In this document: positions 3,955 through 31,674 of the stretch, piece after piece | Position numbering within the stretch: position 1 is the stretch's first letter | Layout: the number at the start of each line of letters is the position of its first letter | NCBI GenBank assembly: GCA_020053945.1 | Contig: JAGVME010000032.1 | Coordinates: forward strand, 1-46,404 | Reading direction: 5' to 3' | Source: Gammaproteobacteria bacterium | Lineage (GTDB): Bacteria > Pseudomonadota > Gammaproteobacteria > Ga0077554 > Ga007554 | Length of the DNA stretch: 46,404 bases | Program-made: the position numbers and the translations under genes | The notes under the pieces: model-generated | What the model was told of the DNA's origin: nothing | The model's database searches: none | Seen by the model: the letters and a program-made list of their open reading frames with translations, nothing else

Positions 3955-4497
3955 ATGCAAAGACAGCGTGGGTTTACTCTTTATAGAAACGGCTTCACCT
4001 TGCTCGAACTGGTGGTGATGATAGCAGTAATCAGCGTGCTGGCAATCATTTTGTTAAATCGGCTTTGGTACTATCAAGAAGTCGCCGAAAAGACCGCTAT
4101 GGAAATGACGGTAATGAATATGCGCAGCGGCTTGCGGTTACGCATCGCTGACTTGATGACGCAAGACCGGATGGGCGAGGCCGCGCAACTGGCCCAGGAA
4201 AACCCAATTAATTGGCTAGAAAATCCGCCACCGAATTATATGGGGGAGTTGAACAATCCCAAGCAGGGCGCCCTTATGCCGGGGAGTTGGTATTTTGATA
4301 CGGGGCAACAGGAGCTGGTGTATCTGTTGCAGCATAACAGATTTTTAAAGCCTGGCATGGGTGAAAACCTGGAGGGGAAAAATGCCCTTCGTTTCCACGT
4401 AATTGCAGTGGGGAACCCACGGAAAAATGGGAACGGCACTGTACATAAAATAGAGGGCATCACCTTGGTGCCGGTTACACAGTATCACTGGTTTTAG
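3955..4497 (+). CDS. MshF-like prepilin-type protein
   Basis: GFTLLEL N-methylation motif; position after mshG. Confidence 0.7.
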   Translation: MQRQRGFTLYRNGFTLLELVVMIAVISVLAIILLNRLWYYQEVAEKTAMEMTVMNMRSGLRLRIADLMTQDRMGEAAQLAQENPINWLENPPPNYMGELNNPKQGALMPGSWYFDTGQQELVYLLQHNRFLKPGMGENLEGKNALRFHVIAVGNPRKNGNGTVHKIEGITLVPVTQYHWF

Positions 4498-4528
4498 AAT
4501 TTAGCATTTATATTTAAGGAGCAAAAGG

Positions 4529-5005
4529 ATGCGCAACAAACAACACGGTTTCACTTTAATCGAACTGGTCATCGTCATATCCATCATTGGAATTTTGGCT
4601 GCGGTGGCCTTGCCACGGTTCATTAATTTGCAAGTCCAGGCGCGCACGGCCAAGGTGCAGGCTATTTTTGGCTCTATTAAATCAGCCGCCGCTCTTGCCC
4701 GCGCCAATTGCATAGTCGATCTGGCCGGACTTACCTTACCAGCCACCTGCACAGCAACAGCAGGAACCACCAATATGGACGGCACGGCCGTGACTATGGT
4801 CAATCAATACCCCGCAGCAACGGCTGCGGGAATCATTGCGGCGGCACAATTGAATGCGGCTACAGATGGGATCACCATTACAGCGGGCAATCCGATCCTG
4901 ATTGATGTCAATGGAGGCACCTCACCTAACTGCCGCATTTCATATACAGCCGCAACCGCAGGCCCCATTACTCCGGCCATTACATTAACCACTACGGGGT
5001 GTTAG
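4529..5005 (+). CDS. MSHA type IVa pilin (MshB/MshA-like)
   Basis: [25 protein letters not shown], paired Cys, RBS aagga. Confidence 0.85.
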   Translation: MRNKQHGFTLIELVIVISIIGILAAVALPRFINLQVQARTAKVQAIFGSIKSAAALARANCIVDLAGLTLPATCTATAGTTNMDGTAVTMVNQYPAATAAGIIAAAQLNAATDGITITAGNPILIDVNGGTSPNCRISYTAATAGPITPAITLTTTGC

Positions 5006-5096
5006 AAGAATGTGACGGCACTAAAGGTAAAGTTAAATAAGAGTTCTTAATTGTATACCATACATAGTAATTTTTTTATTAGTCAGGAGATAAGTC

Positions 5097-5546
5097 ATGC
5101 GTAATGAACAGAAAGGTTTTACTTTAATTGAGTTAGTGGTGGTGATCGTCATTCTCGGAATACTAGCCGCTGTGGCAGTGCCGAAGTTCGTAGACTTGAG
5201 TGGTGAAGCACGCTTGGCGACGACTCAAGGGGTAGCAGGTGCTCTAGCCTCTGGCAGCGTTACTAACTATGCCGCTGATCTCGCAAAAGGTCAGGCTCAA
5301 GGGGCAACATTGGCTTCTGCAACCGCAAAAACAGGGATCGCTGATACATCGGGCGGATGCACCCCCACTGTAGCCACATCCCTGATGCAGGCAGGTGGCG
5401 TCACTTTTGCTGCTTCTGGTGCGGGTACTTATAATGTGAGCGGCGGTACTGCCCCAACAACCGTAGGCGCAACTACTACCTGCACCGTGACCAACAACGA
5501 TGACACAACCAAAACAGCGACTTTTTCTTTGCTAGGAGCAAAATAA
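5097..5546 (+). CDS. mshA: MSHA type IVa pilin, probable major pilin
   Basis: [25 protein letters not shown]; AT-rich upstream region, RBS aggag, downstream stem-loop. Confidence 0.75.
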
Positions 5547-5591
5547 TCACATCTTCGAGGTAGTTTACCAGCCTCGTGAAAATGTGATTTT
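5545..5591 (+). terminator. Stem-loop after the pilin gene (terminator, attenuator or mRNA stabiliser)
   Basis: aatcacat..cgagg pairs with cctcg..atgtgatt, followed by T residues. Confidence 0.45.
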
Positions 5592-5619
5592 ACATGCAAA
5601 CTTCTGAAGGTAGTGGGCG

Positions 5620-6108
5620 ATGATTGACCAGAGCTTTCCACTACCCAAAGGTGAGCATGGCTTTACCCTCATCGAGCTGATTGTGGTAATGATGATCATC
5701 GGCATTCTTGCGGTAGCCGCGCTGCCGCGATTTGTTGATAACCAGTCATTTCATACCCGCGGGTTTTATGATGAGACATTGGCGGCGCTGCGTTACGCAC
5801 AGAAAGCCGCCATTGCCCAACGCCGTAACGTATGTGTAACCCTCACCTCCACCACGGTGACGCTTACGATTGCCAATGCGGCGGGGAATGCTGCACCGTG
5901 CAATACCCCACTTTCGAGTCCCACAGGGGTCGCTCCTTTTTTAGTGAGCGCCCGTCCGGGCATTAATTTTTCCGGCGTGTTTTCCAATTTCAGTTTTAAT
6001 GCGTTGGGTAAACCCAATCCCGATACGGCGGTATCACTGAACATTGTGGGTGACGGCACAGCACGGACGATTACGGTGGAGCGGGAAACGGGTTATGTCC
6101 ATTCTTAG
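5620..6108 (+). CDS. mshC: MSHA minor pilin MshC
   Basis: GFTLIEL, LRYAQKxAIA, C-terminal ETGYVH. Confidence 0.8.
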   Translation: MIDQSFPLPKGEHGFTLIELIVVMMIIGILAVAALPRFVDNQSFHTRGFYDETLAALRYAQKAAIAQRRNVCVTLTSTTVTLTIANAAGNAAPCNTPLSSPTGVAPFLVSARPGINFSGVFSNFSFNALGKPNPDTAVSLNIVGDGTARTITVERETGYVHS

Positions 6109-6125
6109 CGCTTTTCTGTGTTTCC

Positions 6126-6190
6126 TGTCATCTCGACCGCAGGGAGAGACCTTAATAATCTTAAGATCTCTCCCTGCGGTCGAGATGACA
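6126..6190. repeat. Perfect 24-bp inverted repeat (REP/MITE-like)
   Basis: tgtcatctcgaccgcagggagaga (6126-6149) and its exact reverse complement (6167-6190). Confidence 0.85.
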
Positions 6191-6209
6191 ATTAAATAGA
6201 TCGTTTCTT

Positions 6210-6794
6210 ATGAAACACACTACCAGAAAAAACGGATACAAACAGGCAGGGATTTCCCTGATTGAACTGGTGATGTTCATTTTGATTGTTAGCGTGGGTA
6301 TAGTCGGCATCCTGTCAGTGATGGACATTACGACCAAAGCCAGTGCGGACCCGATGCTGCGTAAACAAGCGTTGTCTATCGCTGAATCTTTACTCGAAGA
6401 AATCCAATTACAACCCTTCACCTTCTGTGACCCAGACGATGCAAATGCGGCGACCGCAACCAGTACCGCAGGCTGCGCAACAACCGCAGAAGTGGCGCCG
6501 TTGGGGCCGGAAGCGGGTGAAACGCGCTATGCGGCACCCCTGTTTGACAATGTGAATGACTATCACAACTTTAGCTTGCCTGCGCCGCCCGGCATCCGTG
6601 ATATTACGGGTGCAAATATTAGTGGGCTTGCGGGATATTCTGCCACTGTCACCGTCGCTGAAATCCCCTTGGGCGCCATTCCAGCGGCAGCATCCCTGTT
6701 TATTACCGTTACTGTCACCCCGCCCTCAGGGGCTGCCGATAATGTGATGCTCAGTGGGTATCGCACGCGCTATGCGCCCAGGGCCGTGCCATGA
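6210..6794 (+). CDS. mshD: MSHA minor pilin MshD
   Basis: GISLIEL, SADP..KQALSIAESLLEEI, FDNVNDY, GYRTRY. Confidence 0.85.
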   Translation: MKHTTRKNGYKQAGISLIELVMFILIVSVGIVGILSVMDITTKASADPMLRKQALSIAESLLEEIQLQPFTFCDPDDANAATATSTAGCATTAEVAPLGPEAGETRYAAPLFDNVNDYHNFSLPAPPGIRDITGANISGLAGYSATVTVAEIPLGAIPAAASLFITVTVTPPSGAADNVMLSGYRTRYAPRAVP

Positions 6795-7597
6795 CACCCC
6801 CTACTATGATAAAGCAAAAAATAAGCGTCCAAAAAGGATTCACGTTGATAGAAGCGGTGATGGTGATCACCATCACCGGCATCATCGCATCAATGGTGGC
6901 GGTATTTATTGCGTCCCCCGTCAAAGGGTATTTCGATAGCGCGCGGCGCGCGGAATTGAGCGACACCGCCGATACGGCGATTCGGCGGATTTCGCGGGAT
7001 GTGCATTTAGCCTTGCCCAACAGCGTGCGGATAGCAAGCCCCCAGGTAATGGAATTCCTGCAAACCCGCACCGGTGGCCGTTATCGGACCGATGGCATTG
7101 ATGGGCTGGATTTTACCAATCCCACCGATACAACCTTTGATGTGCTGGGCCCGGCTGTTACATTGATTGCGGGCGATCAAATTGTGATTTACAACCTGGG
7201 GATTCCTGGCGCAGATGCTTATGTTGGCAATAATCGGCGCGCATATAACGGTGCGGGAGGCAGCGTAACCAACGTACCGATTATTTCAACCAGCGCCTTC
7301 CCGCTTGATTCCCCCGGCCATCGCTTTCAAGTCGTGGATACGCCGGTAACCTATATTTGTGACATACCTGCGGGTACTTTGACGCGCTACTGGGGCTATA
7401 CCATCGTCGATCCTCAGCCTAATCCTCCCTCAGGAGGTAACAATGCGCTGCTGGCAAAGAACGTGAGTAATTGTACTTTCACCTACACACAAGGCGTCAC
7501 CGAACGCAGTGGTCTGGTTTCGATACAGCTTGCGATCACGCAAGACAATGAAACAGTGAACCTTTACCATGCGGTGCAAGTCAGCAATGTGCCCTGA
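6791..7597 (+). CDS. mshO: MSHA minor pilin MshO
   Basis: GFTLIE, ALPNSVR, C-terminal VSNVP. Confidence 0.85.
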   Translation: MTPPTMIKQKISVQKGFTLIEAVMVITITGIIASMVAVFIASPVKGYFDSARRAELSDTADTAIRRISRDVHLALPNSVRIASPQVMEFLQTRTGGRYRTDGIDGLDFTNPTDTTFDVLGPAVTLIAGDQIVIYNLGIPGADAYVGNNRRAYNGAGGSVTNVPIISTSAFPLDSPGHRFQVVDTPVTYICDIPAGTLTRYWGYTIVDPQPNPPSGGNNALLAKNVSNCTFTYTQGVTERSGLVSIQLAITQDNETVNLYHAVQVSNVP

Positions 7598-19999: not shown

Positions 20000-20844
20000 G
20001 ATACAGCGCTGTCCCGCAATTTTGCCATGATATCTGAGGTTATCGGTCCATTCACCTGAAAACTGCACCCCGGAATACCCATGATTTCACGCACTGGCCA
20101 TATCCCAATCACGCTATTGCACAAAAATACCTCGTCAGCCGAAATGACCTCTTCTAACGCCAGGGCGGCAATGGCGCTCGGTATACCTGCCGTACGCGCA
20201 TAGGCCAAAATCCAGCTACGCATCACACCCGCCACGCCACACTGCGATACATCCGGTGTTAACAATTGCCCGTTGCGCACCACAAACAGGTTAGTCATCG
20301 TGCCTTCAATTACGTTACCCTGAATATCGAGCATCAAGCCTTCCGGCACATTCGCATCATCCCATTCACTGCGCGCCAGCACCTGTTCCAGGCGATTAAG
20401 ATGTTTGATGCCTGCTAGCGCTGGATTCCACCCCAAACGCGTGGCACACACACGCACTGCCACACCTTCACTCCAGAAAGCCATGGGGTAATCCGGCCAG
20501 GGGTAGAGCGCCAAGATGCGCGTAACCTGAGCGGATAAGGGCGGTGGCGCCCGGTAGCCGCGTCCGCCACTACCACGAGTGATGATGATTTTCAGCACGC
20601 CCTGCGTTTCACCACTACATAACGATAGCGCCTCGCTACGCAGCAGCGCCAGATCAGGCCCAAGGAAATTAGGAAAGTTCAAGCGTTGGCAACTCAACCG
20701 CAAACGCTGCATGTGCCTATCCCACAGCGCAGGCTCACCGTTGATCACCGCAAAAGTTTCAAACAGGCCATCGCCATAGTGCAGACCGCGATCATGCACA
20801 TCAATGCAATTAGCAGGAACGCCATTGACCAGGGTGGTCGTCAC
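19996..20844 (-). CDS. pabC: Aminodeoxychorismate lyase
   Basis: DRGLHYGDGLFET, KHLNRLEQV, EGTMTNLF. Confidence 0.93.
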   Translation of the reverse strand: MTTTLVNGVPANCIDVHDRGLHYGDGLFETFAVINGEPALWDRHMQRLRLSCQRLNFPNFLGPDLALLRSEALSLCSGETQGVLKIIITRGSGGRGYRAPPPLSAQVTRILALYPWPDYPMAFWSEGVAVRVCATRLGWNPALAGIKHLNRLEQVLARSEWDDANVPEGLMLDIQGNVIEGTMTNLFVVRNGQLLTPDVSQCGVAGVMRSWILAYARTAGIPSAIAALALEEVISADEVFLCNSVIGIWPVREIMGIPGCSFQVNGPITSDIMAKLRDSAVS

Positions 20845-22421
20845 CCACTCGCCCCCAGCGCCAACAACAACCCCCGCGCCTTGGCGCGTGTTTCCTGTAA
20901 CTCGGCGTCAGGAACGGAATCCGCCACAATCCCCGCGCCGACACGAAATTGCACATCACCATTTTCCACCAGCATGGTACGAATCAAAATATTCAGGTCC
21001 ATATTTCCATTATGATTCAGGTAACCCATTGCGCCAGTATATGGCCCACGTGGCGTCTGCTCCAGCTCGGCAATGATTTCCATGCAGCGCACTTTGGGGC
21101 AGCCCGTAATGGTGCCACCCGGAAACACCGCGCGTATCACTTGCCCCGGCGTCACCTCAGGGCGTTTAATGCCGCGCACATTGGAAACAATGTGATGCAC
21201 ATGGGCGTACGATTCCAGCACCATCAATTCATCCACCTGCACGCTACCGGGTACGCACACACGACCCAGATCATTACGTTCCAGGTCGATCAGCATCACA
21301 TGCTCGGCACGTTCTTTCGGATGCGCCAGCAACGCCTGTGACAACGCAACATCTTCATCACCCATCCCGCGCGGACGTGTACCGGCAATCGGCCGCACCT
21401 CAATGACATCACCCTGCACCCGCACCAGACGCTCGGGCGACGAACTCAAAATCGCGCTGGCCGCTCCCGGCGTCGTGCCTCCTGCGTCGTACATGGATGT
21501 ACAAGTGTCGCCAGAAGCAGGATACTGGAAGCGATCGGCACTAGCAGAACCCTTCGCTTCCGCTCTTCCCTGTGCGTCGCCCTTATAGAGCGCGACACCC
21601 GCAAACGGCGCGGGATTGTTTTTCCGCAAGCCCTGGTAAAGTTGCATATAACTTACATCAGGCGCCAACGTGGCGCGATATCCCCGCGACAAATTTACCT
21701 GAAACACATCGCCTGCCACGATATATTCCTTAATACGCCGCACACCGTCCAGAAAACGCGTGGGATCATCCTCCTGCAGTGCGCTTATCGGCGCGGCCAC
21801 TTCGGCGTGAGGTTCCACTGTTAAATGCTCAAGGTCATGCGCCATCCTATCGAGCAATACTGCATCTTCAGCCACAAGGAAGGTGCATTGGACATGATGA
21901 TCAACAATCACTGCCGCGGGAATACGTGTAGCAAACGCGATGGGCAGCCGTGATGTGCTGAGCGGCTCCTGCCCGCTTAGCTCCTCCCGCGCTTCCCCGT
22001 GCGTTTCGGCGCCGGCCAATGCCAAGCGCGGCTCAATTTGCGCTGCCAACCCATACCCCAGATAAATAAACCAGCCGCCGGAAAACGGCAACACAGGGTC
22101 CACCTCAGTAGATGACAGCGCCGCCTCATGCGCCCACGCATCGTCCAGTGCCTGCAAAAAATTCGCCGCACCGGGGACGAAGGGAGCTGCGAGCGCCAGA
22201 GAAGACGGGGACCCGGAAGTGGCAGAAACGTGGGACGTGGCATTACCCGCCAACACCAAGGTTTTGCCAGGAAAGGCGAACAGTATGTCATAACGCGCAG
22301 GCAGGATGCCGGGAGCGGCCGACGTACCATGCGCCACACTTTCGAGCAAAAAAGGGTAGCGTTCGGCATGGGCGCCATGCAAACGCAGAAGATCAGGATA
22401 GATAGGTAGTTGACGTATCAC
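20841..22421 (-). CDS. pabB: Aminodeoxychorismate synthase component I, with in-frame repeat insertions
   Basis: FQVNLSR, SSPERL, PIAGTRPR, EHVMLIDLERNDLG, ITGCPK; next to pabC. Confidence 0.88.
   Translation of the reverse strand: MIRQLPIYPDLLRLHGAHAERYPFLLESVAHGTSAAPGILPARYDILFAFPGKTLVLAGNATSHVSATSGSPSSLALAAPFVPGAANFLQALDDAWAHEAALSSTEVDPVLPFSGGWFIYLGYGLAAQIEPRLALAGAETHGEAREELSGQEPLSTSRLPIAFATRIPAAVIVDHHVQCTFLVAEDAVLLDRMAHDLEHLTVEPHAEVAAPISALQEDDPTRFLDGVRRIKEYIVAGDVFQVNLSRGYRATLAPDVSYMQLYQGLRKNNPAPFAGVALYKGDAQGRAEAKGSASADRFQYPASGDTCTSMYDAGGTTPGAASAILSSSPERLVRVQGDVIEVRPIAGTRPRGMGDEDVALSQALLAHPKERAEHVMLIDLERNDLGRVCVPGSVQVDELMVLESYAHVHHIVSNVRGIKRPEVTPGQVIRAVFPGGTITGCPKVRCMEIIAELEQTPRGPYTGAMGYLNHNGNMDLNILIRTMLVENGDVQFRVGAGIVADSVPDAELQETRAKARGLLLALGASG
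21460..21579. repeat. Nested composite of the 51-bp repeat, in frame inside pabB (120 bp)
   Basis: Plus-strand unit at 21485-21535 inside a minus-strand unit; removing it restores YKGSAILSSSPE. Confidence 0.85.
22294..22327 (+). repeat. Partial 51-bp repeat in the pabB 5' region
   Basis: cgcgcaggcaggatgccgggagcggc followed by cgacgtac; encodes SAAPGILPAR. Confidence 0.65.
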
Positions 22422-22471
22422 TTTAAGGGCTTTTCTAACATAGGAAGCATGTTGTCATGTTGCTGGAGGCA

Positions 22472-22564
22472 GCCGCTCCGGCTGCTGCGCCGCCCATGGA
22501 TGGGCCAGTGTCGCCAGAAGCAGGATGCTGGAAGCGACTGGCACTAGCACATCCGTGTACGTCG
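22472..22564. repeat. Nested composite of the 51-bp repeat, leuS-pabB intergenic
   Basis: Plus-strand unit at 22488-22538 inside a partly deleted minus-strand unit. Confidence 0.85.
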
Positions 22565-22628
22565 AGTGTCAAAATACTGAAGAATGGGGGTGATAACAAG
22601 TAATGACGCCTTCCATTGCACAAACAAG

Positions 22629-25176
<2,548 letters not shown>

Positions 25177-25204
25177 ATTGATCAGTCAACATGACAATAG
25201 GGTG

Positions 25205-26083
25205 TTAAGGCTCATTCTCATACGGTGACAGCTTGAGCGTTTTCAGGGCTTTTTTCAGGCCATCGAGGCTAATGGCTTCTACAAAGCCATCAATACCGGC
25301 TTCTTTGGTCGCGGGGTCTTTGGCTTTTACGGCGAGCGCCGCCGCTTTTAATTTTTCCGCCAATGCGGCATCCACATGTTCTGTCGCCATTAAAAACCAT
25401 TCGGGATACAGGTTCGTGCTATGTAAATGCGGTAGCTCATCATGTTTTTGATCCAATACCACAATTTTGCGCAAGTCGATCAAACCAGCTTTTGCCATGC
25501 TCTCCAGCACGCCACTCCTGACCAAGCCCGCATCCATCATCCCTAGCTCTACTTCCAGCGGAATTTCATCCTGGCGGCGCGCTTCTTTGAACAGGGCAAA
25601 ATCCTTGTGCGGGTCAATACCTTTTTTCATCAAATGATACGCCTGAAATACATACCCCCCCGCCGAAGTGCCAATTTGATAGCCCATGACTTTTTTACCT
25701 TTCAAGTCGGCGACACGCATAATACCACTGCGCTGGCTGGCAATAATAACCCCCGCAAAATAAGGCGTGCCCTGCGCTTTCACCGTTGCCAAAGGTTGCG
25801 CATGGTATTTCTCAGCGACAATCACGGCCGACACGGGATTAACCAACGCAAAATCCACATCGCCATTGCCAATGGCCTCGGTAATTTTTGCGGGGGCATA
25901 CGGCATGATCAGGATATCCTTGCCGATTTTAACGCCAAGTTGTTTAACCAGGGCTTGCCACTTGGCGGTTTCCACCGAACCCCGCGGCGCATTGATGGCC
26001 AGCTTGACCGTATCAGCCTGGGCCACGCCCCAGCATACGCCAAACAGCATAATAACCATCGGACCAAAAAAACGGATCTTCAT
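25205..26083 (-). CDS. PhnD/phosphonate-binding-like periplasmic substrate-binding protein
   Basis: Signal peptide, DFALVNP, SAGGY, DAGLVRSGVLE, LYPEW. Confidence 0.75.
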   Translation of the reverse strand: MKIRFFGPMVIMLFGVCWGVAQADTVKLAINAPRGSVETAKWQALVKQLGVKIGKDILIMPYAPAKITEAIGNGDVDFALVNPVSAVIVAEKYHAQPLATVKAQGTPYFAGVIIASQRSGIMRVADLKGKKVMGYQIGTSAGGYVFQAYHLMKKGIDPHKDFALFKEARRQDEIPLEVELGMMDAGLVRSGVLESMAKAGLIDLRKIVVLDQKHDELPHLHSTNLYPEWFLMATEHVDAALAEKLKAAALAVKAKDPATKEAGIDGFVEAISLDGLKKALKTLKLSPYENEP

Positions 26084-26246
26084 AAGGTGTTCATCTCAAA
26101 ATTTCCATCCATTTTAACTTTTTATTTTACCTCAGGAGGAGGCTTGATGGGCGTATATGCCCTGCCAGTATAAAAAATGCCCGGGTTTTCTATACCTATT
26201 GGCGTATGATACCCTATATTACCTGATGACTCTTAAGGATATTGCC

Positions 26247-26744
26247 ATGAAGCCGCGCAACGAAAAACATCTGCACGCCTATGACCATATGATGGAACAG
26301 GTGAAAACCCTGGCGGATCATCTGGGCTATCAAAACCTCAAGCATGCCATCCAGATTGCCAAAAATAACGCCGTGGAAGTGGGTGAGTTGACACGTGAAG
26401 AGGCCGAGCTCATTGGTGATTACCTGATGCGTGACCTGGAAGACGCGGGCCACTATCTGGCGGATAATGGCGGCGAACTGAAAGATTGGTTGCGTTTCGA
26501 TTTGGAACTGATTGAAGAACGTTTGCTGGAGATGTTTGCGCTGGCGGCAGACAAAACCAAACTGGAGTTCATGCAACTCGCCGAACGTGCAAGGCGCGCG
26601 GACGAATACCACACCGGCAGTATTACCAGCATTGGGACTTTGGAGTGTACAAACTGCGGCGAGCTATTGCGCTTTCATGCCACCAGCCACATTCCCCCCT
26701 GCCCAAAATGCCATGGCAGCGTTTTCAGGCGGGTTACGGCGTAA
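26247..26744 (+). CDS. Zinc-ribbon protein (DUF1451-like)
   Basis: ADKT, YHTG, CTNCG...CPKCH; RBS aagga. Confidence 0.8.
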   Translation: MKPRNEKHLHAYDHMMEQVKTLADHLGYQNLKHAIQIAKNNAVEVGELTREEAELIGDYLMRDLEDAGHYLADNGGELKDWLRFDLELIEERLLEMFALAADKTKLEFMQLAERARRADEYHTGSITSIGTLECTNCGELLRFHATSHIPPCPKCHGSVFRRVTA

Positions 26745-28023
26745 TTACGGGGAGATGCCTGTTTCGTTCGTCATGGGGTGCCGCAGGTTCACCGCGCGCC
26801 ACATAGGTGGCGGCCACCAGATCACCCGTCACGTTTAGCGCGGTGCGGCACATGTCGAGAAAGCGGTCGATGCCCAAAATCAACGCCAGCCCTTCAACGG
26901 GAATGCCGAAGGTCACCAGGATCATGGCAATCACGGGCAACGAACCCGCGGGGATGCCTGCCGTGCCAATACCGCCCAGCACACAGATCACCATGATCAG
27001 AAACTGCTGGCCCAGACCCAGCTCCACACCAAACAACTGCGCAAGGAATAATACCGTGACGCCTTCAAACAATGCTGTGCCATTCTGGTTCATGGCAGAG
27101 CCTGCGGTGAGCACAAAACGGCTAACGTGGCGCGGCAGGTTCAAGTTTTCTTCAGCAACCTTGAGCGCCGTCGGCAAGGTTGCGCTGGAAGATGCCGTGG
27201 CAAATGCGGTGACCATGGCAACGCGCACACTGCGAAAAAACATCAGGGGTGATCGCCCGCCGAGAAAGCGGATCGCCAATGGGTACACCACAAACATTTG
27301 CAGACCCAGGCCCAGCAACACAACGCCCACATACGACATCAGATACGGTAATAGCTCGGTGCCGAGCCGCGCCGTCATGGTGAAAATCAATGCGGCAACA
27401 CCGTAGGGCGCAAGTTTTAAAACGCCATGGATCAGCGTCATGCTCACATCATAAAGACCTTCTATCGTTTCACGCAGGCGCAACGCGCCGGGGGTTTGCG
27501 TAAACGATAAGCCCACGCCGAAAATCAGCGAGAATAAAATCACGCCGATCATCTCGCCATTCGCGGCGGCCTTGATCGGGTTATCGGGAAACATCGCCAC
27601 CAGCAATGCCACGCCTGTGGTGTCGGGCGGTTTGGGCACGGTGAGCGTCGCACTGTTGGCCGTGGCCAAGCTGCGCAATTCTTCTGGCAAACCGGCGCCG
27701 GGGCGTATCAAGTTAGTCAACGCCATGCCGATCAATACGGCAATCAATGACGCCACCACGGTATAACCCAGTGTACGCGCGCCCATCCGCCCCAGATGTT
27801 TTACGTCCAGCCCGCAGATGCCAATCACCAGCGCCGAGAACAGCATCGGGATCACCAACATGAACAACAGGCGCAAAAAAATCTGCCCCGCAGGCAGGGT
27901 GATATTATCCACCACCCACGGCAACCACACCGTGTCATGCGCCAACGTTTTGACCACTAAACCCAATCCACCGCCGATTACCAGGCCAATGAGAATTTTC
28001 GCGCTTAAGCTGGCCTTATACAT
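26734..28023 (-). CDS. Dicarboxylate/amino acid:cation symporter (DAACS, GltP-like)
   Basis: TASSSATLP, MNQNGTAL, GIDRFLDMCRT; likely start ATG at 28023. Confidence 0.88.
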   Translation of the reverse strand: MYKASLSAKILIGLVIGGGLGLVVKTLAHDTVWLPWVVDNITLPAGQIFLRLLFMLVIPMLFSALVIGICGLDVKHLGRMGARTLGYTVVASLIAVLIGMALTNLIRPGAGLPEELRSLATANSATLTVPKPPDTTGVALLVAMFPDNPIKAAANGEMIGVILFSLIFGVGLSFTQTPGALRLRETIEGLYDVSMTLIHGVLKLAPYGVAALIFTMTARLGTELLPYLMSYVGVVLLGLGLQMFVVYPLAIRFLGGRSPLMFFRSVRVAMVTAFATASSSATLPTALKVAEENLNLPRHVSRFVLTAGSAMNQNGTALFEGVTVLFLAQLFGVELGLGQQFLIMVICVLGGIGTAGIPAGSLPVIAMILVTFGIPVEGLALILGIDRFLDMCRTALNVTGDLVAATYVARGEPAAPHDERNRHLPVITP

Positions 28024-28973
28024 CAATTCTCCGCCAGCACCATTTCCAGTGCCGCCCTCCAATCGGGAAACGTGATGCCGAAGGTCTGCGCCAGTTGTTC
28101 GTTGCTCAACACTGAATAGGCAGGACGTGCGGCAGGTGTCGGGTAATCGTTGCTGGGAATAGGTTGTAATTGCGTGGTTGCACCCTCCAAAATGGCATTG
28201 GCAAAGCCGTGCCATGATGTTTGACCTGCGCAGCTCATGTGATACACGCCGCTGTGCTGCCGGATATAACCGGTCACACTCGCCGCACAGGGACGTGCAA
28301 GTGTCGCGGAAGGCAGGATGCCGGTAGCGACCGCCGCACCGGCATAATCGGTAGCGTTGTCCCGACCTCGATCCAACCCTTGCGCGACAATTTGCGCCGT
28401 CGCCTCGGCCAGCAGCCGACACCAAGTGGGCGCGCCGACCTGGTCATCAACCACTTTCAACAGTGGCCTTTCACTGGCTAGACGTTGCATGGTCAGCAAA
28501 AAGTTTTTGCCACGCCGTCCATACACCCAGGCGGTGCGCAGAATAAGGTGCGGCACATCCACGGCCTGAATGGCGCGTTCACCCGCCAGCTTGGAGCTGC
28601 CATAAATGTTTTGCGGATTCGGGATATCCTGTTCGGTATAGGGCGTATTTTTGCTGCCATCAAATACATAATCTGTGGAATAGTGTATTAATGCCGCGCC
28701 GAGGCGTTGTGCTTCTTGCGCCAGAATCCCCGGTGCGGTGCCGTTAATCGCCAGCGCCAGTGCCGGCTCGGTTTCAGCTTTATCCACCGCCGTATACGCC
28801 GCCGGGTTGACAATTAAATTCGGCTTTACCTCACCGCAGATTTTTCTTATCGCGTCAGGGTTGGCCAGATCCATGTCGGCCTGCCCCAGCGCGATGACCT
28901 CACCCAAGGTGGACAAGGTGCGTTGCAGTTCCCAGCCTACCTGACCGTTTTTCCCGGTGAGTAAAATTCTCAT
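28023..28973 (-). CDS. rmlD: dTDP-4-dehydrorhamnose reductase, with in-frame repeat insertion
   Basis: GKNGQVG, AAYTAVDKAE, STDYVFDG, YGSSK. Confidence 0.93.
   Translation of the reverse strand: MRILLTGKNGQVGWELQRTLSTLGEVIALGQADMDLANPDAIRKICGEVKPNLIVNPAAYTAVDKAETEPALALAINGTAPGILAQEAQRLGAALIHYSTDYVFDGSKNTPYTEQDIPNPQNIYGSSKLAGERAIQAVDVPHLILRTAWVYGRRGKNFLLTMQRLASERPLLKVVDDQVGAPTWCRLLAEATAQIVAQGLDRGRDNATDYAGAAVATGILPSATLARPCAASVTGYIRQHSGVYHMSCAGQTSWHGFANAILEGATTQLQPIPSNDYPTPAARPAYSVLSNEQLAQTFGITFPDWRAALEMVLAEN
28281..28331 (+). repeat. 51-bp repeat unit in frame inside rmlD
   Basis: cgccgcacagggacgtgcaagtgtcgcggaaggcaggatgccggtagcgac, followed by a repeated cgccgcac. Confidence 0.85.
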
Positions 28974-29518
28974 GGAAACGCCTCGGCCGCCTTAAACGGA
29001 ACACCCACTGCATCTTTGGCAGATAACGCGGGCGCGCCGGACAACGGCCAGTCTATGGCAAGGTCAGCATCATTCCATAACAAAGAGCGCTCATACTGCG
29101 GCGCATAAAAATCCGTGGTTTTATAGAGAAATTCAGCATGGTCGGACAATACCAGAAAGCCGTGGGCAAACCCTTTGGGTACCCACAACATGCGCTTGTT
29201 GGTGGCCGACAGGTGCATACCAACCCACTGGCCAAACGTGGCAGATGCACGGCGCATATCCACAGCCACATCATATACTTCACCCACCACCACCCTCACC
29301 AGCTTGCCTTGTGGCTGCTGGATCTGGTAATGCAATCCGCGCAACACATTCTTCGCGGAACGGGAATGGTTGTCCTGCACAAAGCGCTCGGTGATGCCAG
29401 CCCCGTCCGCCAGTTTTTTCTCGTTGTAGCTTTCATAAAAAAAACCACGCTCATCACCAAACACCTGAGGTTCGATAATCAACAAATCTGGAATTGCTGT
29501 TTTTTGTATTTGCATCAT
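28970..29518 (-). CDS. rmlC: dTDP-4-dehydrorhamnose 3,5-epimerase
   Basis: DERGFF, QDNHSRS, LRGLHYQ, GFAHGF. Confidence 0.95.
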   Translation of the reverse strand: MMQIQKTAIPDLLIIEPQVFGDERGFFYESYNEKKLADGAGITERFVQDNHSRSAKNVLRGLHYQIQQPQGKLVRVVVGEVYDVAVDMRRASATFGQWVGMHLSATNKRMLWVPKGFAHGFLVLSDHAEFLYKTTDFYAPQYERSLLWNDADLAIDWPLSGAPALSAKDAVGVPFKAAEAFP

Positions 29519-29529
29519 TCACCCGACCT

Positions 29530-30405
29530 TTAAAAAATCCGTTCTTTCAATAACCCGAGCAAATAGGCGCCATAACCATTCTTTGCCAAGGGCTGCGCCA
29601 AGGCTTCCAATTGGCTGGCGCTGATGTAGCCTTTGCGGTAAGCGATTTCTTCGGGGCAGGCGATCTTGAGTCCCTGACGCTTTTCGATGGTCTGGATAAA
29701 CAGCGATGCTTCCAGTAACGATTCGTGCGTGCCGGTATCCAACCACGCCATGCCGCGCCCCATCACTTGCACATCCAGTAAACCCTGCGTGAGATAGTGA
29801 CGATTGACATCGGTGATTTCGAGTTCACCGCGTGGCGAAGGACGGATGGCGCGGGCAATATCGACGACCTGATTATCATAAAAATACAGGCCTGTGACCG
29901 CATAACGCGATTTCGGAACGGTGGGCTTTTCGACGATGCTGAGGGCTTTGCCAGCCGCATCAAACTCAACGACGCCATAGCGCTCAGGGTCTTGCACCGG
30001 GTAGGCAAAGACGGTGGCGCCCGTTTTCTTTTGCGCGGCGTCCAGCAGTTGTGGCGATAAATCATGGCCGTAGAAAATATTGTCGCCCAACACCAGCGCA
30101 CATGAACCGTCACCAATAAAATCACTGCCAATAATAAATGCCTGTGCGAGGCCATCGGGCGAGGCTTGTACCGCATAGGTGATGCTGAGTCCCCACTGCT
30201 GGCCATCCCCCAACAATTGTTCAAAACGCGGCGTGTCCTGGGGGGTGGAAATGATGAGAATATCGCGGATCCCCGCCAGCATGAGGGTAGTCAGCGGATA
30301 ATAGATCATGGGTTTATCATAAACCGGCAACAATTGCTTGGACACCGCCTGGGTGACGGGATACAAACGGGTGCCGGAACCCCCGGCGAGAATGATGCCT
30401 TTCAT
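29530..30405 (-). CDS. rmlA: Glucose-1-phosphate thymidylyltransferase
   Basis: [34 protein letters not shown]. Confidence 0.96.
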
Positions 30406-31604
30406 GGAATGGCTCCTGGGTTGTGGGGGGTATTTGTGCCGGTTCGGTTGGCATAATTCTGCGCCACCCAGTGCTGGTAATTGCCGCTGGTGACATTCCC
30501 TACCCAAACTTTATTGTCCAGATACCAGCGCACGGTCTTGCGCAAGCCGGTTTCGAAGGTTTCCTGGGGCACCCAGCCCAGGTCGCGCGCGATTTTGCGG
30601 GCATCAATGGCATAACGGCGGTCGTGGCCGGGACGGTCTTTGACGTAGGTGATGAGTGATGCGTGGGGGACATGCGCCGCATCAGGGCTATATTCATCAA
30701 GAAGGGCGCACACGGTATGCACAACATCGAGGTTGGTTTTTTCATTCCAGCCACCAATGTTATAAACCTCGCCAATTTTGCCCTGGGCCAATACGGCACG
30801 GATCGCCGCGCAGTGATCCCCCACATACAACCAGTCGCGGACATTTTGGCCGTCGCCATACACCGGCAAAGGGCGGCCTTGGGTGGCGTTAAGGATCATC
30901 AGGGCAATGAGCTTTTCCGGAAATTGGTACGGGCCGTAGTTGTTGGAGCAGTTGGTGGTTAAGGTGGGCAGGCCGTAAGTGTGGTGATAGGCGCGCACCA
31001 GATGATCGGAAGCGGCCTTGGAAGCGGAGTATGGGCTGTTTGGGGCGTAGGGGGTGGTTTCGCTGAACGGCGGATCCTGCGCGCTTAGGGAGCCGTAAAC
31101 TTCGTCGGTGGACACATGCAGGAAACGGAACGCGGCTTTTTCATCGCCCGCTAAAGTGTTCCAGTAAGCGCGCGCCTCTTCGAGGAGATTAAAAGTGCCT
31201 ACAACATTCGTTTGGATAAAATCGCCGGGGGCGTGGATAGAACGGTCGACATGGCTTTCTGCGGCAAAATTCACTATCGCGCGGGGGCGGTGGGTAGCAA
31301 GTAACTGCCGCACCAACACCCGGTCGCCAATATCACCTTGCACAAAAATATGCCGGGAGTTACCCTGCAGGCTGGTCAGGTTATCCATATTCCCGGCATA
31401 GGTCAGCTTGTCCAGATTCACGACTGAATCCGCCGCACACGGAGGTGCCAGTGGCGTGGAAGGCAGGATGCCGTGAACGGCCGCCGCACACGGAGGTGGC
31501 AGTACTGCCCCAGGCCGGGTGCCGGAAGCGTCCGCCTCCTGGGCGATCCAGTCCAACACAAAATTCGACCCAATAAAGCCTGCACCACCTGTGACTAGAA
31601 TCAT
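30402..31604 (-). CDS. rmlB: dTDP-glucose 4,6-dehydratase, with a 34-aa in-frame repeat insertion
   Basis: [39 protein letters not shown]. Confidence 0.95.
31431..31532 (+). repeat. Two tandem 51-bp repeat units in frame inside rmlB
   Basis: cgccgcacacggaggtg at 31431 and 31482, cgcc again at 31533 (period 51). Confidence 0.88.
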
Positions 31605-31674
31605 CCCCGTTTCCTCCTTTTGTTGAAATTCCATAAACATCCCCTACCCCTACCCTTCAGGCAGGAGGCATATT

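What the first reader, a model, noticed from the sequence alone, without database searches (positions are those of the whole stretch)
21485..31532. Repeat units carry two covarying GGA-loop hairpins matching the CsrA/RsmA binding consensus
Seen: hairpin 1 varies as gtac-atggat-gtac, gccc-atggat-gggc, gcac-agggac-gtgc and gcac-acggag-gtgc. Hairpin 2 varies as ggca-gga-tgcc and agca-gga-tgct, inside an outer gtcgc/gcgac or gccgc/gcggc stem. Stems change in a compensatory way while GGA is mostly kept. Established: CsrA/RsmA dimers bind two GGA hairpin loops, consensus (A/U)CANGGANG(U/A), and CsrB-type sRNAs repeat CAGGAUG. Full copies in rmlB/rmlD have the GGA face antisense to the mRNA. The inverted unit at 22539-22564 puts GUACACGGAUGUGC on the leuS-pabB sense strand. 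Inference: the unit may be a mobile CsrA-binding cassette, or be derived from a Csr sRNA. Alternatively the hairpins are ssDNA recognition signals for mobilisation.
Basis: partly seen in the sequence, partly recalled or inferred. Interest (0 to 1): 0.72.

Follow-up and report, generated by a model that had tools for sequence, protein, structure and literature searches.

The report
Mobile 51-base CsrA-loop in-frame insert
The repeats are copies of a 51-base (17-codon) DNA unit, present about 190 times in this genome and mostly inserted in frame inside ordinary genes, whose two hairpin loops match the binding site of the RNA regulator CsrA, so it is likely a selfish mini-element that would bind CsrA when transcribed, rather than a control site evolved for these genes.

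Summary
Observation confirmed. The hairpins belong to a 51-nt unit with 191 hits in 146 clusters in this genome and none in a reversed control. Stems covary. A loop-blind search finds GGA in 87 of 104 hits against 0-2 in shuffles. Both loops fit C-A(N)GGAN-G, usually 21-23 nt apart, and csrA is present. Relatives lack the pabB (120 nt, nested), rmlD (72 nt) and rmlB (102 nt) inserts. Across the genus, 56 of 59 coding-site length differences are multiples of three. GGA is kept equally in sense and antisense copies, with only a mild sense excess, so the loops look inherited from spreading copies, not tuned per gene. It occurs in many Gammaproteobacteria and was nearly undetected in 201 Burkholderiales, which mostly lack csrA. 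No linked transposase or reverse transcriptase was found, and CsrA binding is untested. It behaves like Rickettsia palindromic elements and resembles the TwoAYGGAY core, but fails the TwoAYGGAY and REP membership tests. Eight literature searches did not find it; this scan noted the same 51-base element before in other genomes.

The parts
21460..21579 (-). 69-nt variant unit (51 plus an 18-nt insert in hairpin 1) on the pabB sense strand, split by a nested copy; whole insert 120 nt = 40 codons, in frame
   Evidence: CM hit; absent from pabB of G001-G004 and G009; coordinates
21485..21535 (+). 51-nt unit nested in the host unit, antisense to pabB
   Evidence: a contig of run X2 skips it, net 51 nt (table 5c)
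22294..22319 (+). Eroded remnant (hairpin 2 and right end) in the 5' part of pabB, in frame
   Evidence: weak CM hit 22294-22317, E 0.066; other species carry different remnants or nothing at this site
22472..22564 (-). Split host unit between leuS and pabB, sense to both: left half 22539-22564 with an intact hairpin 1, shortened right half 22472-22487
   Evidence: a contig of run X2 lacks 22476-22626
22488..22538 (+). 51-nt unit nested in the intergenic host unit
28281..28331 (+). 51-nt unit inside rmlD, antisense; net insert 72 nt = 24 codons against relatives
   Evidence: G001 and G004 lack it
31431..31481 (+). 51-nt unit inside rmlB, antisense, first of a head-to-tail pair
31482..31532 (+). 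Second, decayed 51-nt unit of the rmlB pair; pair = 102 nt = 34 codons
   Evidence: 9 of 9 aligned orthologues lack the 102 nt; contigs of runs X2 and X3 lack this copy
20841..22421 (-). Host gene pabB-like (aminodeoxychorismate synthase component I)
   Evidence: NF006563 over cut-off
22629..25085 (-). leuS, upstream of the intergenic copies
   Evidence: TIGR00396 over cut-off
28023..28973 (-). Host gene rmlD
   Evidence: TIGR01214 over cut-off
30402..31640 (-). Host gene rmlB; insert lies after the first helix of the Rossmann fold (position inferred from the GxxGxxG motif)
   Evidence: TIGR01181 over cut-off; PDB 1g1a aligns on both sides of the insert

Best explanation
The unit is a 51-nt two-hairpin element that has inserted precisely, without target duplication, at about 150 sites of this genome, two thirds of them in reading frames that stay open; it is likely moved in trans as a folded single strand by a HUH/Y1-type transposase, and its CsrA-type loops would bind CsrA when transcribed in sense without being a control site for the host gene. 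Shown: copy number, boundaries, in-frame insertion, polymorphism between relatives, covarying stems, loop consensus, csrA presence. Inferred: the 17-codon length and stop-poor frames let copies survive in tolerant protein loops, which then decay by in-frame deletion; the loops are kept because spreading copies need them, not because each gene does. The mobilising enzyme is a guess (about 40% for HUH/Y1); CsrA binding of sense copies is about 65% likely.
For: 81 of 86 strict matches are exactly 51 nt although both loops vary in length, with compensating indels; longer variants are 66, 69 and 84 nt. Length is a multiple of 3 in 92 of 95 coding copies versus 26 of 35 intergenic ones, p 4e-4. Against 1.19 of 2.9 Mb of G002, 56 of 59 coding empty/filled differences are multiples of 3 and 29 are exactly 51; 16 of 17 in the direction where the gene was called on the empty allele. 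Empty sites read N|C with no duplication; flanks of 234 non-nested copies show only a weak preference, C at +1 in 185. Six pabB orthologues carry different inserts or remnants at different sites. Copies nest in each other and form 51-nt tandems. Pattern counts range from 0 to 172 among 12 genomes of the family. GGA retention: sense 52/54 and 50/54, antisense 37/38 and 36/38. G.T outnumbers A.C 49 to 20 on the GGA strand, in sense (17:8) and antisense (16:3) copies alike (copies not independent). Insertion without duplication at hairpin-bearing ends is what IS200/IS605 and REP systems do (recalled).
Against: No enzyme is linked. The four RAYT-like genes whose flanks I could read sit between other palindromes, GTAG-tagged where checked; none of 43 Y1 genes from 11 genomes has the unit at its ends and no Y1 clade is confined to element-rich genomes (one further Y1 locus, L259, has a copy about 155 nt upstream); no recurring neighbour among 121 metagenome and viral loci. 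No leading/lagging strand bias: 55:53 in G000, 24:39 in G002 pieces, where Y1 enzymes usually show one (recalled). Element-target covariation exists but follows no clean pairing rule. A mild sense excess (pooled 95:61, p 0.008; tandem intergenic 25:11) leaves room for RNA-level selection. With 12-nt flanks both GGA are unpaired in only 28 of 92 predicted folds, against 76 of 92 without flanks.
Confidence: 0.55

Rival explanations
1. The GGA loops are only DNA signals read by a transposase on single-stranded DNA, and the match to the CsrA site is coincidence.
For: No target duplication and hairpins at both ends; nearly random orientation and equal GGA retention on both strands; GNA and GNNA loops are very stable in DNA hairpins (recalled); RNA and DNA folding energies do not separate the strands.
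Against: The free and fixed positions follow the RsmE pattern, fixed A and GGA with variable N (PMC7652899, passages); two such loops lie inside the 10-63 nt CsrA bridging range; multi-copy genomes were all csrA-positive and the unit was nearly undetected in 201 Burkholderiales; an unrelated repeat in the same genome carries the same loops.
Confidence: 0.2
2. The copies are kept by the host as dispersed CsrA sites that tune mRNA stability or act together as a sponge.
For: Loop consensus and spacing; mild sense excess; three orthologous copies shared with G002 differ at 1 of 153 nt against 46 of 420 in flanks; precedent for an mRNA-derived RsmA binder, RsmU (PMC7694677, passages; there GGA mutation did not abolish binding or function).
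Against: Most sites are species-specific: 56 empty versus 13 shared among G000 clusters compared; the three conserved sites were picked for equal length and the other ten shared sites differ or hold other subtypes; old copies decay; over 40% of coding copies face antisense; two csrA-positive relatives have 0-1 copies.
Confidence: 0.13
3. The element spreads through an RNA intermediate that CsrA binds and protects, and is written back by a reverse transcriptase.
For: G.U-compatible pairs favoured on the GGA strand regardless of orientation; high diversity, 103 distinct sequences in 106 copies; distribution follows csrA at order level.
Against: No RVT_1 match in G000 (86% complete), G094 or G099; one each in G002 and G009, with no copy nearby; no promoter, processing or RNA data.
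Confidence: 0.08
4. The unit is a fragment of a CsrB/RsmY-type small RNA gene that became mobile.
For: CAGGAUG-type loops of both 5 and 6 nt, as in Csr sRNAs (recalled).
Against: No Csr/Rsm family hit at E up to 5 in the window or E up to 1 in nine loci; fixed two-hairpin design with a conserved linker across many orders.
Confidence: 0.04

Closest known systems
Rickettsia palindromic elements (RPE; PMC10969869 and PMC3733652, passages read)
   Same: Short palindromic selfish DNA inserted in frame in unrelated protein genes; no dedicated transposase known for the CGTC-type members.
   Different: 51 nt rather than about 150 nt for RPE-1; two CsrA-type hairpins; Gammaproteobacteria; two thirds of clusters (99 of 146) in reading frames, in all six frames, so no conserved peptide.
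TwoAYGGAY RNA motif (Rfam RF01731; PMC4333381 and bioRxiv 10.64898/2026.09.22.753630, passages; PMC2864571, supplement hits)
   Same: Two successive hairpins with CsrA-type loops, the second with a purine-rich internal loop; variable copy number; Csr/Rsm binding and mobility proposed but unproven.
   Different: No enclosing basal stem, 51 nt against 115-168; loops ANGGAN or AGGAN; mostly intragenic (about 10% for TwoAYGGAY in the preprint); neither model finds the other.
GTAG and CGTC REP elements with RAYT/TnpA-REP (PMC3733652, passages)
   Same: Small hairpin repeats with an unpaired 4-nt 5' tag (here CGHY), nesting and clusters, some intragenic.
   Different: Two hairpins with 4-5 bp stems instead of one 5-13 bp stem; tag is mostly CGCC or CGAC; not flanking RAYT genes; mainly intragenic.
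CsrB/CsrC/RsmY/RsmZ sponge RNAs and RsmU
   Same: C-A(N)GGAN-G hairpin loops spaced for a CsrA dimer.
   Different: Not a transcription unit; two sites only; dispersed, both orientations; no Rfam match.

Membership tests
TwoAYGGAY (RF01731) | Match to the Rfam covariance model | tested here: not met
   No hit in window or G000; the model did ring in 7 of 150 genomes. Model R1 scores at most 12 bits on 12 TwoAYGGAY loci versus 62-73 on full window copies.
TwoAYGGAY (RF01731) | Two hairpins with AYGGAY-type loops | tested here: met
   Met loosely: loops are ANGGAN or AGGAN; AGGGAT 24, AGGAT 24, ATGGAT 22 of 128.
TwoAYGGAY (RF01731) | Common basal stem enclosing both hairpins | tested here: not met
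   Empty sites fix the unit at 51 nt with no outer stem; 5 of 7 folded TwoAYGGAY loci show a long one.
GTAG/CGTC REP with RAYT | GTAG or CGTC tag followed by one 5-13 bp palindrome | tested here: not met
   Tag is CG[ACT][CT], position 3 A 114, C 56, T 9 of 179; two short hairpins.
GTAG/CGTC REP with RAYT | Copies flank a RAYT gene | tested here: not met
   no Y1 gene bracketed by the unit; one locus has a single copy upstream. CGTC repeats also lack this link (PMC3733652).
GTAG/CGTC REP with RAYT | Cleavage and strand transfer by a HUH enzyme | not testable with these tools
   Needs biochemistry.
Rickettsia palindromic elements | In-frame insertion in unrelated genes | tested here: met
Rickettsia palindromic elements | Sequence homology to an RPE family | not tested
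   No RPE sequences were fetched; published sizes and tags differ.
Classical MITE of a DDE insertion sequence | Terminal inverted repeats and target-site duplication | tested here: not met
   No duplication at empty/filled sites; ends are not inverted repeats.
CsrA/RsmA binding site | ANGGAN or AGGAN loop closed by C-G | tested here: met
   128 of 137 for hairpin 1; 80 of 104 loop-blind hits for hairpin 2.
CsrA/RsmA binding site | A-U pair next to C-G (SELEX RUACARGGAUGU) | tested here: inconclusive
   40 of 137 copies meet (A/U)CANGGANG(U/A), 2 the full SELEX consensus; G-C is commoner in this genome.
CsrA/RsmA binding site | csrA in the host | tested here: met
   G000:C5:5655-5810, 91 bits.
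CsrA/RsmA binding site | GGA-dependent binding in vitro or in vivo | not testable with these tools
   No binding or RNA data available.
Csr/Rsm sponge sRNA | Independent small RNA gene matching CsrB/C or RsmX/Y/Z models | tested here: not met
   most copies lie inside coding sequence.

The most novel reading that the evidence does not exclude
A widespread class of 17-codon mobile elements that depends on the host regulator CsrA for its life cycle: a CsrA dimer clamps the two loops of the excised or transcribed unit and protects or delivers it, so the element spreads only in csrA-bearing lineages, while seeding CsrA sites and new peptide loops into hundreds of housekeeping genes.
Probability: 0.2. 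Interest if true: 0.8.

Novelty: new variant of a known kind. Interest (0 to 1): 0.5.

Why it matters
It extends in-frame selfish palindromes, best known from Rickettsia, to free-living Gammaproteobacteria, with a fixed 17-codon unit, paired empty and filled alleles and visible decay into short protein loops. How such elements move is an open question, and a 51-nt unit that is polymorphic among close relatives, with single copies in named species (Thermomonas, Gilvimarinus, Nitrosomonas eutropha), makes it testable. It also ties the unproven idea that TwoAYGGAY-like repeats bind Csr/Rsm proteins to a minimal two-site unit. For annotation, it explains spurious 17-40 residue insertions in core enzymes.

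Tried and rejected
Rfam scans of the window and nine loci: only tRNAs, a group II intron end and noise. RF01731 in G000: none; the control set was silent, so one search was run as a positive check. Search for split (autonomous) elements by orphan halves in G000 and G002 pieces: in the part of the output shown (cut), orphans were nested, variant or truncated copies, none bracketing a gene. Y1 link: none. Y2 (IS91) family: 0 of 5 genomes, but the control was silent, so absence is not shown. RVT_1: 2 of 5. Replication-strand bias: none. Guide-target pairing: covariation without a clean rule. Phage or plasmid carriage: 1 match in viral contigs, none in plasmids by a short blastn query. csrA co-occurrence across 150 family representatives: 13 of 130 csrA-positive versus 0 of 20 csrA-negative with two or more matches, p 0.22, not significant; the 130 include the unpublished genome G054 (csrA-positive, no match). 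The Burkholderiales contrast is one lineage: 35 of 201 had a pattern match at about control level, two genomes had 2-3 matches that I discarded by eye for lacking the stem, and only the N. eutropha copy was a clear unit. Strong conservation of shared copies: biased sample, not used as support. Sequencing runs: no RNA holder listed. Gene calls in G000 are from my own hexamer script, not a published tool. Literature searches found no description of this unit; most subscription papers and preprint supplements were not searchable.
Full report
What is there. The window holds five plus-strand 51-nt units (21485, 22488, 28281, 31431, 31482), two minus-strand host units split by nested copies (21460-21579, 22472-22564) and a remnant at 22294. 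The alignment consensus is CGACGnACAGGGATGTnCAAGTGTCGCGGGAGGCAGGATGCCGGGAGCGAC: a 4-nt unpaired tag, hairpin 1 (4 bp, loop ANGGAN or AGGAN), a 4-nt linker, and hairpin 2 (5 bp outer stem, purine-rich internal loop, 3-4 bp inner stem, GGA loop). The host genes are pabB, rmlD and rmlB, and one pair lies between leuS and pabB.

An HMM finds 191 hits in the 2.14-Mb genome and none in the reversed genome, in 146 clusters. A search blind to both loops returns 104 hits, 87 with GGA in loop 1; shuffles give 13-20 hits with 0-2 GGA, and only one of the 17 hits without GGA is a recognisable mutated copy. On 85 aligned copies 96.5% of cells pair and 7 of 12 pairs show double changes, beyond all 500 shuffles and all slid controls. 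These copies are related and part of the set came from a pattern search, so this is strong but not a probability.

It is a mobile insertion. Nine of nine aligned rmlB orthologues lack the 102-nt pair, five pabB orthologues lack the 120-nt nested insert, and the two rmlD orthologues that my script extracted, of four found, lack 72 nt. Contigs from two metagenome runs skip exactly 51 nt at the nested pabB copy and at the second rmlB copy (laid at 85% likeness, so they may be related strains). Against 1.19 Mb of the 2.9-Mb sister genome G002, sites with alignable flanks gave 85 empty/filled pairs and 13 shared sites. Junctions are clean, with no duplication, usually before a C. Copies nest in each other and form tandems. 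Pattern counts run from 0 to 172 within the family.

It is built to fit reading frames. 81 of 86 strict matches are exactly 51 nt although loop lengths vary, and variants add 15 or 18 nt. 99 of 146 clusters lie in predicted genes (my own gene calls). Length is a multiple of three in 92 of 95 coding and 26 of 35 intergenic copies. Coding-site differences are multiples of three in 56 of 59 cases, 16 of 17 in the non-circular direction. All six frames are used, so no peptide is conserved. pabB of six genomes shows independent inserts and shortened remnants at several sites, which I read as birth in frame followed by in-frame erosion. Elsewhere copies sit in open frames of dnaG, pcnB, purH, tgt and uvrA homologues among others (35 of 74 frames scanned had a Pfam hit).

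The CsrA question. For: hairpin 1 fits C-A(N)GGAN-G in 128 of 137 full copies and the two GGA are 21-23 nt apart in 102 of 116, inside the 10-63 nt bridging range and matching the fixed A and GGA with free N positions described for RsmE (PMC7652899, passages). csrA is present. All 13 other family representatives with two or more matches have csrA. In 201 Burkholderiales csrA matched in 2 and only one clear copy was seen, inside an hsdM-like gene of N. eutropha. G.T pairs outnumber A.C pairs 49 to 20 on the GGA strand. Against: the family-level test is not significant (p 0.22) and the Burkholderiales are one contrast; csrA-positive relatives G006 and G008 have 0-1 copies; coding copies are 70 sense to 53 antisense, singletons 45 to 33 (p 0.21), with GGA kept equally; pooled sets give a mild sense excess of 95 to 61; only 40 of 137 copies meet the strict consensus; with flanks, both GGA stay open in only 28 of 92 predicted folds. 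In this window every intact two-loop copy faces antisense. The simplest reading is that the loops are a property of the spreading unit and that sense copies would bind CsrA as a by-product.

The mobilising enzyme was not found. Y1 transposases occur in element-rich and element-poor genomes alike, none is bracketed by the unit and no clade tracks it. Reverse transcriptase was found in 2 of 5 carriers, not in G000. No neighbour recurs in 121 further loci, and there is no replication-strand bias. I still rank a HUH/Y1 enzyme acting in trans first, from precise ends, no duplication and terminal hairpins (recalled properties), at about 40%.

Comparison. It works like Rickettsia palindromic elements and CGTC REPs, which also enter genes in frame and lack a dedicated transposase (PMC10969869, PMC3733652; passages). 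It looks like the two-hairpin core of TwoAYGGAY, for which Csr/Rsm binding and mobility are proposed but unresolved (PMC4333381; bioRxiv 10.64898/2026.09.22.753630; passages; PMC2864571, supplement hits only). It is not a member: no RF01731 hit, no basal stem, and at most 12 bits with the reciprocal model. Eight searches did not find this unit in print; the preprint's closed supplements describe TwoAYGGAY variants that I could not see. Earlier notes of this scan describe the same 51-base element in other genomes; I had reached this reading before seeing them, and they are not independent support.

Verdict. Observation confirmed, interpretation partly supported. A new variant of coding-compatible palindromic mobile elements carrying CsrA-type loops; mechanism of movement and CsrA binding remain untested. 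Interest 0.5.

Noticed in passing
L203:1501-1550 and L216:1477-1526 (G029): Two 50-nt copies differing at 2 positions sit antisense at the same place near the 3' end of two divergent integron-type integrase genes (PF00589 plus PF13495) and interrupt them.
   Followed up: partly
L240-L242 (G078): Three 51-nt copies lie at the same site in related Y1-like transposase genes (identified by motif, no Pfam hit); another copy lies in an IS91-like gene in L147.
   Followed up: partly
L066, L085, L086, L104, L144: Five loci fall in tgt homologues, several with the copy at nearly the same site: a hot spot or an old shared insertion.
   Followed up: no
G000 C8, C9, C14, C53, C75, C122: Related units with a CGCC-ATGGAT-GGCG first hairpin and a different second hairpin nest inside the 51-mer in either orientation.
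   Followed up: partly
G000 C4, C7, C16, C19, C31, C39, C50: An unrelated repeat with GTTGAAAA/TTTTCAAC inverted arms also carries ANGGAN hairpins, so CsrA-type loops recur in at least two repeat families of this genome.
   Followed up: no
window 21543-21566 and many genome copies: 15-nt and 18-nt GCGAAGC-containing inserts lengthen units to 66, 69 and 84 nt, always by whole codons.
   Followed up: partly
element position 14 and 3 versus target positions -2, -1, +3: Element bases covary with target bases beyond within-group permutation (0 of 400), without a clear pairing rule.
   Followed up: partly
L054, L060: Two records titled as archaeal MAGs carry the unit and two csrA matches each at 66-95 bits; likely mislabelled or contaminated.
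   Followed up: no
G000 C7, C8, C131, C143 (L004-L007): Four short RAYT-like genes are flanked by their own palindromes, GTAG-tagged.
   Followed up: partly
window 22421-22629 versus G001-G004, G009: Relatives have a different gene (fabF-like by its C-terminal motif, recalled) upstream of pabB instead of leuS, so the intergenic copies sit at a rearrangement junction.
   Followed up: no
window 3955-7597: Several genes share a type IV pilin-like N-terminal motif, seen as repeat families D3 and D4 (label recalled).
   Followed up: no
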